A stretch of 64,000 bases of DNA. Origin: Octopus sinensis. Lineage: Eukaryota. The position numbers were made by a program. Numbering within the stretch: the stretch's first letter is position 1; the number at the start of each line of letters is the position of its first letter. The stretch is from the NCBI RefSeq assembly GCF_006345805.1, contig NC_043002.1, forward strand, positions 113,398,001 through 113,462,000, read 5' to 3'. Of the stretch, positions 4,949 through 6,647 are shown piece after piece.

Positions 4949-6607
4949 CCGGAGTAAACACAATAAATGTGAAACAAGGTGGAAAAAAGAGTACTCAATA
5001 CCAGTGGTAGAGTAATATGCTTTATTTAAAGCAGCAGAAAATTCAACAAAACCTGTTACTCTGAGTTTCACGTTGCCGTTCATCGGACAGTTTTTTCTAG
5101 CAAAAACTGTCCGATGAAACGGCCGCGAAACTCAGAGTAACAGGTTTTGTTGAATTTCTGCTGCTTTAAATAAAGTATATATATATAATATATATAATAT
5201 ATATATATGATATATATATATAAGTTTAACAATTAAGGATAATCTCTTATAAGGGATCTTAACAAGAAATTATCGGGTAGCTAGCGTGAAAACCTCATAA
5301 AAGAAAAGAATTCGAATAATTTTTTTTCTTTTGAACAAATTAATTATATCTATATTGTATAGAGAGGGCATTATTACCATAAATGCCTCACACTAGGAGG
5401 GACAAAGTCATTACTACCAAAATTATACTAATCATACCCAAATGCAGTTTTCAAAGCAAGACATTTAAAAAAATGAATTTAGTTCTGTATCACCGTGATT
5501 TCACATTCAACTTACGTCTAATGATCGTCAGCAGAACTGATTCTGAACACATCATAAATAAACTACCAACCTTACGTAGCGAAGACGAACAGACAACTGC
5601 TCACTCCGGCCAAGCACATGGAATGTTTATAAATCATTATCCGGTAAAGGCGGGCTTTTTACGAACTGCATGTCGGTAATGAAAAGTATTTCGGAATAAG
5701 TTTAACAATTAGGATAATCTCTTAATAAGGGATCTTAACAAGAAATTATCGGGTAGCTAGCGTGAAAACCTCATAAAAGAAAAGAATTCGAAAATATTTT
5801 TCTTTTGAACAAATTAATTATATCTATATTGTATAGAGGGCATTAGTACACATAAATGCCTCACACTAGGAGGGACAAAGTCATTACTACCAAAATTATA
5901 CTAATCATACCCAAATGCAGTTTTTCAAAGCAAGACATTTAAAAAAATGAATTTAGTTCTGTATCACCGTGATTTCACATTCAACTTACGTCTAATGATC
6001 GTCAGCAGAACTGATTCTGAACACATCATAATAAACTACCAACCTTACGTAGCGAAGACGAACAGACACTGCTCACTCCGGCCAAGCACATGGATGTTTA
6101 TAAATCATATATCCGGTAAATGGCGGGCTTTTTACGAACTGCATGTCGGTAATGAAAAGTATTTCGGAATAAGTTTAACCATTAAGGATAATCTCTTGCG
6201 TGTACAATCTTAACAAAAATTATCGGGTAGCTAGCGTGAAAACCTCATAAAAGAAAAGAATTCGAAAATAATTTTTTTCTTTTGAACAAATTAATTATAT
6301 CTATATTGTATAGAGGGCATTATTACACATAATGCCTCACACTAGGAGGGACAAAGTCATTACTACCAAATTATACTAATCATACCCAAATGCAGTTTTT
6401 CAAAGCAAGACATTTAAAAAAATGAATTTAGTTCTGTATCCGTGATTTCACATTCAACTACGTCTAATGATCGTCAGCAGAACTGATCTGAACACATCAT
6501 AAATAAACTACCAACCTTACGTAGCGAAGACGAACAGACAACTGCTCACTCTCCGGCCAAGCACATGGAATGTTTATAAATCATATATCCGGTAATCATA
6601 TATCCGG

Positions 6608-6647
<40 letters not shown>

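What the first reader, a model, noticed from the sequence alone, without database searches (positions are those of the whole stretch)
5221..6609. Tandem ~475-bp units each carrying a type I hammerhead: candidate non-LTR retrozyme / circular RNA locus
Seen: about 2.9 head-to-tail non-coding units in a (TA)n tract. Each has, on the minus strand, CUGACGA and GAAA cores, a 7-bp stem I, a GUAA-capped stem II and a quasi-palindromic stem III (AUCAC-G-GUGAU). Predicted cuts at 5488/5487, 5962/5961 and 6437/6436 would release monomers of 474 and 475 nt. Established: non-LTR retrozymes of corals, mussels and axolotl are tandem type I hammerhead repeats that are processed to circular RNAs and are thought to use PLE reverse transcriptase; palindromic stem III favours dimeric cleavage between neighbouring copies. 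Inference: the array was copied from a circular or multimeric RNA template, and it is a long-monomer retrozyme family in a probable cephalopod. It also has an unusual U-U at positions 10.1/11.1.
Basis: partly seen in the sequence, partly recalled or inferred. Interest (0 to 1): 0.88.

Follow-up and report, generated by a model that had tools for sequence, protein, structure and literature searches.

The report
Tandem hammerhead-ribozyme repeat, retrozyme-like
A 1.4-kb stretch holds nearly three head-to-tail copies of a 475-base non-coding unit, each with a self-cutting hammerhead RNA motif; it looks like one more example of an already described kind of mobile element that is thought to spread through small RNA circles.

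Summary
TRF finds one array at 5220-6595, period 474, 2.9 copies, 95% matches. On the minus strand every copy carries the full hammerhead core (CUGACGA, GAA, A15.1-U16.1, H17=A), a 7-bp stem I, a GUAA-capped stem II and a near-palindromic stem III. The predicted cuts give monomers of 474 and 475 nt. Chance is unlikely: 12 of 20000 shuffled units pass the same descriptor.

The retrozyme reading is the best one, but it is untested. The unit has 34% GC and no open frame. As a circle it folds better than shuffles (z -4.4 and -3.9). It lies inside (TA)n, a known target of Penelope-like elements. Folding predicts a double hammerhead between neighbouring copies.

Against it: Rfam reports no hammerhead match, even at E<=10 on 91 nt. 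The window holds no second copy and no Penelope-like element.

The two novelty claims fail. Published retrozyme units span 150-450 bp and 51-972 bp, and axolotl HHR_Amex2 has the same U-U at the base of helix II and cleaves.

Verdict: probable new member of a known kind; modest interest.

The parts
5221..6609 (-). Whole array: 2.9 head-to-tail units of 474-475 bp; the RNA sense is the minus strand
   Evidence: TRF 5220-6595, period 474, 2.9 copies, 95% matches; alignment of the units; blastn of the unit finds only these copies
5488..5961 (-). Monomer A, cut site to cut site, 474 nt, 34% GC
   Evidence: Cut sites; circular MFE -113.4 kcal/mol against shuffles -89.8 +/- 5.4, z -4.36, 65% paired
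5962..6436 (-). Monomer B, cut site to cut site, 475 nt; differs from A by indels and one multi-base replacement near 6198-6210
   Evidence: 95.4% identity; circular MFE -115.0, z -3.86
5221..5487 (-). Partial unit at the 3' end of the RNA sense (first 267 nt after a cut site); ends in (TA)n
   Evidence: 95.9% identity to the unit
6437..6609 (-). Partial unit at the 5' end of the RNA sense; includes hammerhead copy 3 and a 15-bp terminal duplication (6579-6619)
5475..5543 (-). Hammerhead 1. Stem I is 7 bp (5538-5532 with 5487-5481) plus a 4-bp extension across a C/AA internal loop. Core CUGACGA at 5531-5525. Stem II has U.U at its base, an A.G mismatch and a GUAA loop. Then GAA, stem III AUCACGGUGAU, and H17 = A at 5488
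   Evidence: Read; descriptor hit; hammerhead structure -11.8 against MFE -13.0 kcal/mol, stem I pairing probability 0.99
5949..6017 (-). Hammerhead 2, identical in sequence to hammerhead 1; C3 at 6005, H17 at 5962
6430..6484 (-). Hammerhead 3, altered: 2-nt deletion in stem III (now AUC-ACG-GAU, no longer palindromic), loop 2 GUA, 1-nt deletion in the stem I extension; C3 at 6477, H17 at 6437
5176..5223 (.). (TA)n on the left flank
6608..6652 (.). (TA)n on the right flank

Best explanation
This is a short genomic array of a non-autonomous, non-coding retroelement of the animal non-LTR retrozyme kind.

Proposed working, with each step marked:

(1) The minus strand is transcribed, probably by read-through, since no promoter is known for this class. 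Inferred.

(2) Each unit carries a type I hammerhead. Its own stem III hairpin is too weak to hold, so the near-palindromic stem III of neighbouring units pairs into a 10-bp duplex, and stem I forms across units: a double hammerhead. Predicted by folding, not shown.

[quoted passage not shown] Inferred from hammerhead chemistry.

(4) A host tRNA-type ligase closes them into well-paired circles. Inferred from Cervera and de la Pena 2020.

(5) A reverse transcriptase supplied in trans, most likely from a Penelope-like element, copies the circle more than once round and integrates the multimer into (TA)n. That would explain the 2.9 units with off-register ends inside a TA microsatellite. Inferred.

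Whether this particular copy is still active is open: one of its three ribozymes is altered.
For: Array of 2.9 units. All conserved core positions and all three helices are present in 3 of 3 copies. Only 12 of 20000 shuffled units pass the same descriptor.

The hammerhead secondary structure lies within 1.2 kcal/mol of the MFE, and stem I has pairing probability 0.99.

Two copies cofold at -37.7 against 2 x -13.0 kcal/mol, with stem III as an intermolecular duplex. The unconstrained MFE of a 561-nt transcript spanning two neighbouring hammerheads already pairs the two stem III elements, and pairs the upstream stem I 5' strand with the downstream 3' strand.

GC is 34% and there is no frame open round the unit: the longest is 82 aa. 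The two plus-strand ORFs have no Pfam match. No tRNA.

The circular minus-strand monomer folds at z -4.4 and -3.9, against -2.4 for the plus strand.

The copies differ by a multi-base replacement as well as indels, so they are distinct copies.

Literature read in named sections or passages:
- type I hammerheads in tandem repeats of 150-450 bp, low GC, no LTR/PBS/PPT, well-paired circles, found in mussels and many invertebrates (PMC7229834);
- U U at the base of helix II in axolotl HHR_Amex2, with better cleavage as a dimer;
- (TA)n as a preferred target of Naiad and Neptune PLEs (PMC8557442);
- retrozymes related to PLE pLTRs, consensus 51-972 bp (2026 preprint).
Against: Rfam 15 gives no hammerhead match at gathering score, nor at E<=10 even on a 91-nt stretch, so Hammerhead_1 must score below roughly 11 bits.

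The 73-nt motif folds no better than shuffles (z -0.05), and its MFE is not the hammerhead fold.

G10.1-C11.1, the usual pair at the base of helix II, is replaced by U.U. Helix II is unusually long (9 positions, 2 of them mismatched). No loop-loop contact can be named.

There is only one array in 64 kb and no other copy of the unit.

I found no PLE (RT plus GIY-YIG) among the 148 ORFs scanned: 9 and 139, the latter being 139 of the 215 non-repetitive ORFs of 70 aa or more. Both RT fragments are LINE-type.

The copies are too alike to show covariation.

TSDs cannot be read, because both flanks are (TA)n.

No cleavage, RNA or copy-number data could be obtained here.
Confidence: 0.68

Rival explanations
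1. An ordinary tandem duplication (minisatellite-like array) in a TA-rich, repeat-rich region, whose unit happens to contain a hammerhead-like string. No ribozyme, no RNA circle, no retrotransposition. The array grew by replication slippage or unequal crossing-over.
For: No Rfam hammerhead hit at any threshold tried. The motif's fold is not better than shuffles. U.U replaces the usual G-C at 10.1/11.1. My relaxed descriptor hits about once per ten shuffled 64-kb windows (21 of 200) and gives one further, probably chance, hit in this window at 26123-26211. In a genome of gigabases, some tandem repeats will carry such a string by chance. Only 2.9 copies, and no other copy in the window.
Against: For this unit the chance is about 6 in 10,000 (12 of 20000). 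Several features lie outside the descriptor: a perfect 7-bp stem I with a 4-bp extension, a GNRA-capped helix II, a near-palindromic stem III that yields a predicted double hammerhead, stronger folding of the ribozyme strand as a circle, and placement inside (TA)n. The U.U has a cleaving precedent.
Confidence: 0.17
2. A piece of a Penelope-like element rather than a separate element: tandem pseudo-LTR or untranslated sequence left from a PLE insertion whose coding part is deleted or lies elsewhere.
For: PLEs carry type I hammerheads in pLTRs, insert as partial tandems and favour (TA)n, often with short extra tails at one end (PMC8557442 passages). A 15-bp duplication sits at one end of the array. 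Dimer-dependent hammerheads are typical of PLEs (PMC7761336 passages). The 2026 preprint places retrozymes next to pLTRs in trees.
Against: No RT or GIY-YIG coding sequence adjoins the array. The nearest RT (2603-4003) is a 5'-truncated LINE whose relatives carry AP-endonuclease domains. Nearly three full units without any coding part is the retrozyme layout. PLE hammerheads are described as minimal, lacking helix III, whereas this one has an 11-nt stem III element and a long helix II. If retrozymes are PLE derivatives, this rival differs from the best explanation only in degree.
Confidence: 0.1
3. An assembly artefact: a single unit wrongly expanded into a tandem array.
For: Most differences between copies are 1-nt indels in short runs, as expected of uncorrected long-read errors.
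Against: The copies also differ by a multi-base replacement (near 6198-6210 against 5245-5255 and 5720-5730) and by substitutions. The array ends are off-register inside (TA)n.
Confidence: 0.03

Closest known systems
Metazoan non-LTR retrozymes (Cervera and de la Pena 2020; coral, mussel, axolotl)
   Same: Head-to-tail non-coding units of a few hundred bp, each with a type I hammerhead. GC below 50%. No LTR-like structure. Monomer predicted to fold into a well-paired circle. Already known from a mollusc (mussel, units of 350-390 bp).
   Different: The unit (474-475 nt) lies slightly above the 150-450 bp given there, but inside the 51-972 bp of the 2026 preprint. Helix II is long, at 9 positions. 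No recognisable loop 1-loop 2 contact. No evidence here of expression or of many copies.
Axolotl HHR_Amex2 / Rtz_353 and the newt satellite 2 hammerhead
   Same: U U mismatch at the base of helix II (HHR_Amex2). A weak helix III with palindromic character. Expected to work best as a double hammerhead between tandem copies (folding).
   Different: An amphibian family with about 60,000 copies and units of 330-350 bp. No sequence comparison was possible, because the published sequences sit in figures and supplements that I could not read. Here the stem III element is longer (11 nt).
Minimal dimeric hammerheads of Penelope-like elements (Cervera and de la Pena 2014; Lunse, Weinberg and Breaker 2017: known to me only through passages of PMC7761336)
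   Same: Type I topology, tandem arrangement, predicted dependence on dimers, link with (TA)n targets.
   Different: The PLE motifs are described as lacking helix III and sit in the pLTRs of coding elements. Here there is no coding element, and the helices are larger.
Rfam Hammerhead_1 (RF00163)
   Same: Same core and topology, by eye.
   Different: No match at E<=10. A giant squid genome paper lists 235 Hammerhead_1 matches (PMC6962438 passage), so standard type I motifs do occur in cephalopods, and this one is not of that standard form.

Membership tests
Hammerhead ribozyme, type I | Conserved core: C3 U4 G5 A6 N7 G8 A9, G12 A13 A14, A15.1-U16.1, H17 not G | tested here: met
   All present in 3 of 3 copies
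Hammerhead ribozyme, type I | Three helices round the core, helix I open and helices II and III closed | tested here: met
   Stem I 7 bp plus a 4-bp extension (pairing probability 0.99). Stem II closed by GUAA. Stem III closed but weak as a hairpin (-0.2 kcal/mol) and strong as a duplex between copies (-13.9 kcal/mol)
Hammerhead ribozyme, type I | G10.1-C11.1 pair at the base of helix II (usual but not universal) | tested here: not met
   U.U in all copies. The same departure is reported in the cleaving axolotl HHR_Amex2
Hammerhead ribozyme, type I | Match to the curated covariance model (Rfam Hammerhead_1) | tested here: not met
   No hit at gathering score or at E<=10
Hammerhead ribozyme, type I | Self-cleavage after position 17 | not testable with these tools
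   Needs in vitro transcription
Non-LTR retrozyme | Tandem array with at least two consecutive units that carry a complete hammerhead with MFE below -5 kcal/mol (working criterion of the 2026 preprint) | tested here: met
   2.9 units; 3 motifs, 2 of them identical and intact; MFE -13.0 kcal/mol. Their rnabob descriptors were not available, so whether those accept the U.U is unknown
Non-LTR retrozyme | Non-coding, GC below 50%, no LTR/PBS/PPT | tested here: met
   GC 34%. Longest open stretch 82 aa, stops in all frames. No Pfam match. No tRNA-like sequence. PBS and PPT were not searched for specifically
Non-LTR retrozyme | Monomer predicted to form a stable, well-paired circle | tested here: met
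   z -4.36 and -3.86, 65-67% paired
Non-LTR retrozyme | Expressed as linear and circular RNA of unit length | not testable with these tools
   No transcript data available
Non-LTR retrozyme | Multiple dispersed genomic arrays; autonomous PLEs in the same genome | not testable with these tools
Within the window there is one array and no PLE in the 148 ORFs scanned
Penelope-like element | ORF with an RT and a GIY-YIG endonuclease, flanked by pLTRs | tested here: not met
   No such ORF near the array. The RT fragments at 2603-4003 and 30206-30736 have relatives with AP-endonuclease domains and none with GIY-YIG among the 120 and 25 listed

The most novel reading that the evidence does not exclude
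This is the first described retrozyme lineage of cephalopods, and its hammerhead is a distinct variant: U.U at 10.1/11.1, a 9-position helix II, and an 11-nt near-palindromic helix III that makes cleavage depend on pairing between neighbouring units. Standard covariance models miss it, so Rfam-based counts of hammerheads in these genomes would be too low. An alternative hairpin (CAGAA-UCAG-UUCUG, 5532-5545) that can hold back the 5' strand of stem I might switch the ribozyme off in the finished circle.
Probability: 0.3. Interest if true: 0.45.

Novelty: new member of a known kind. Interest (0 to 1): 0.3.

Why it matters
If real, it would add cephalopods to the animals that carry hammerhead-bearing circular-RNA retroelements, assuming the cephalopod origin, which has only thin support, is right. 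It would be a second natural example of a U.U at the base of helix II, and a case where curated models fail, which bears on how such elements are counted. It would not change what is known of the mechanism or of the class. Retrozymes are already described in molluscs and many other invertebrates, with unit lengths that include this one.

Tried and rejected
Rfam at three settings gave no hammerhead or any other ribozyme family. The sub-threshold miRNA-like hits belong to the foldback element left of the array, not to the array.

Folding the 73-nt motif alone gave z -0.05 and a non-hammerhead MFE. I set this aside as uninformative, because the motif is predicted to work as a dimer.

I looked for a neighbouring PLE. 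The RT ORF at 2603-4003 and the fragment at 30206-30736 both turned out to be LINE-type, so neither explains the array.

I asked whether the shared ATACCGGA next to (TA)n, at the array end and at the foldback element, marks a common integration signature. There are 4 matches against 1.39 expected, and 3 of 100 shuffles reach 4. Two of the four are copies of one element. Not convincing.

I tested for a frame open round the 474-nt (3 x 158) circle: none.

The second hammerhead-like site, at 26123-26211, has no Rfam support, a 58-nt unstructured insert in helix II and a poor stem I. I treat it as a likely chance hit.

The first literature search on cephalopod terms was badly framed and returned only unrelated papers.

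It holds only bacteria and archaea, and this is animal DNA.

Full report
**What is there**

Between two (TA)n tracts (5176-5223 and 6608-6652) lies a single long-period tandem array. TRF reports 5220-6595, period 474, 2.9 copies, 95% matches and 3% indels. It is the only array in the window with a period above 34. A 15-bp duplication follows at its right end (6579-6619).

blastn of one unit against the whole window finds only the copies in the array.

The units differ mostly by 1-nt indels. They also differ by a multi-base replacement near 6198-6210, so they are distinct copies.

**The hammerhead**

On the minus strand each unit reads as follows: stem I 5' strand AGUUCUG; core CUGACGA; helix II (U, CAUU, A, GAC, loop GUAA, GUU, G, AAUG, U); GAA; AUCACGGUGAU; A; stem I 3' strand CAGAACU.

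Stem I can extend by 4 bp (GAAU with AUUC) across a C/AA internal loop.

Copies 1 and 2 are identical across the motif. Copy 3 has lost two bases of stem III, one of loop 2 and one of the stem I extension, yet it still passes the descriptor.

**Is it more than chance?**

Shuffled 64-kb windows give 0.11 descriptor hits on average, and 21 of 200 have at least one. A lone hit in a window would therefore mean little.

The hit, however, lies in the window's only long-period tandem repeat. Of 20000 dinucleotide shuffles of the unit, taken as a circle on both strands, 12 give a hit.

The descriptor is relaxed: it allows one mismatch in the first five pairs of helix II. It asks for neither the GNRA cap, nor the perfect stem I, nor the palindrome.

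**Results against**

- Rfam 15 gives no hammerhead match at gathering score over the window, at E<=10 over 4900-6900 or at E<=10 over the 91 bases 5470-5560.
- The 73-nt motif alone has an MFE that is not the hammerhead fold and is no better than shuffles (z -0.05).
- The usual G10.1-C11.1 pair is replaced by U.U.
- The copies are too similar to test covariation.

**How it would fold**

- On 74 nt the hammerhead secondary structure costs -11.8 kcal/mol against an MFE of -13.0.
- Stem I has pairing probability 0.99.
- The stem III hairpin (4 bp, CGG loop) is worth only -0.2 kcal/mol and has probability 0.07.
- Two copies together fold at -37.7 against 2 x -13.0 kcal/mol, with stem III as a 10-bp duplex that carries a central G.G.
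- The unconstrained MFE of a 561-nt transcript spanning two neighbouring hammerheads already pairs the two stem III elements, and pairs the upstream stem I 5' strand with the downstream 3' strand. That is one half of a double hammerhead.

**The unit as a whole**

- GC is 34%.
- No frame stays open round the unit; the longest stretch is 82 aa.
- The two plus-strand ORFs have no Pfam match.
- There is no tRNA-like gene.
- As a circle, the minus-strand monomers fold at -113.4 and -115.0 kcal/mol (z -4.36 and -3.86, 65-67% paired). The plus strand reaches z -2.36.

**Surroundings**

- 2603-4003, minus strand: a 5'-truncated reverse-transcriptase ORF with an in-frame stop (RVT_1, E 1.1e-23). Many of the 120 relatives listed also carry AP-endonuclease domains and none carries GIY-YIG. 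It is a LINE, not a Penelope-like element.
- 30206-30736, minus strand: a second RT fragment of the same kind. The only named relative among its 25 hits is an Octopus sinensis protein, at 77% identity. That is thin support for a cephalopod source.
- Mariner-type fragments lie at 14917-15210 and 54182-54947.
- No PLE was seen in the 148 ORFs scanned: 9 and 139. The 139 were chosen from the 215 non-repetitive ORFs of at least 70 aa. The rest, mostly overlapping microsatellites, were not scanned.
- 4950-5176, directly left of the array: a foldback element that recurs at 30660-30835 (96% identity) without any array beside it. It is an independent insertion.

**Comparison with what is known**

Cervera and de la Pena 2020 (PMC7229834; I read the abstract and three results sections):
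- Type I hammerheads sit in tandem repeats of 150-450 bp, with GC below 50% and no LTR, PBS or PPT.
- They are expressed as well-paired circles of about 170-400 nt in a coral, a mussel (units of 350-390 bp) and the axolotl, and similar repeats occur in many invertebrate phyla.
[quoted passage not shown] It cleaves 22% in one hour as a monomer and much better as a dimer.

The 2026 preprint of Li, Clavereau and Pollet (I read the abstract, methods and most of the results):
- It defines active retrozymes as TRF arrays with at least two consecutive complete hammerheads of MFE below -5 kcal/mol.
- It reports consensus lengths of 51-972 bp and places retrozymes beside PLE pLTRs.

Craig et al. 2021 (PMC8557442; passages only) report (TA)n as a preferred target of Naiad and Neptune PLEs, short tails at one end of insertions, and PLEs in cephalopods.

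A giant squid genome paper (passage only) lists 235 Rfam Hammerhead_1 matches.

Searches for retrozyme or hammerhead together with cephalopod or octopus terms found no paper in the held library that describes retrozymes in cephalopods. Supplements, which I could not open, may list some.

**Verdict**

The locus meets the structural definition of a non-LTR retrozyme and most likely is one (0.68).

The rivals:
- a chance motif in an ordinary tandem duplication (0.17);
- a coding-less remnant of a PLE (0.10), which differs from the best reading only in degree;
- an assembly artefact (0.03).

Cleavage, circles, copy number and PLE dependence are untested.

It is a probable new member of a known kind, of modest interest.

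Noticed in passing
window 4950-5176 and 30660-30835: A foldback element of about 225 bp lies directly left of the array. It has nested inverted repeats: arms 5017-5040/5155-5178, 5039-5072/5124-5157 and 5079-5098/5099-5118. A second copy at 96% identity lacks the central hairpin. Both copies abut TA or TATG microsatellites. It draws sub-threshold miRNA-precursor matches in Rfam (MIR395, 40.9 bits against a gathering score of 56). Probably a small non-autonomous transposon.
   Followed up: partly
window 26123-26211 (+): A second string that passes the hammerhead descriptor: CUGAUGA, GAA, a fully palindromic ACGGCCGU stem III, H17 = A. It has a 58-nt insert in helix II and a poor stem I, no Rfam match, and is not in a repeat. 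About one such hit per ten windows is expected by chance.
   Followed up: partly
window 5532-5545 (-), and the same place in the other units: Just upstream of the core, CAGAA-UCAG-UUCUG can form a 5-bp hairpin that takes up the 5' strand of stem I. It appears in the MFE of the long transcript for the downstream copy. It might compete with the active fold.
   Followed up: no
window 2603-4003 (-): A 5'-truncated LINE reverse-transcriptase ORF of 465 codons with one in-frame stop. Its relatives carry AP-endonuclease domains, and the best named ones are bird and turtle CR1-like proteins at about 40% identity.
   Followed up: yes
window 30206-30736 (-): A short LINE RT fragment interrupted by a TA-rich tract. 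Its closest named relative is an Octopus sinensis protein (77% identity over 83% of the query). This is the only pointer to the source organism.
   Followed up: partly
window 14917-15210 (+) and 54182-54947 (-): Mariner/Mos1-type transposase fragments (HTH_48 and Transposase_1 matches).
   Followed up: no
window 41455-41724 (-): An ORF with a weak match to Synaptobrevin (E 3.4e-4, 20.8 bits, below the cut-off of 26.4). Possibly an exon of a host gene.
   Followed up: no
window, throughout: Very dense microsatellites: TRF gives 132 rows, mostly TA, TG/CA, ATA and AGAT. Many 1-nt indels between repeat copies suggest an assembly from uncorrected long reads.
   Followed up: no
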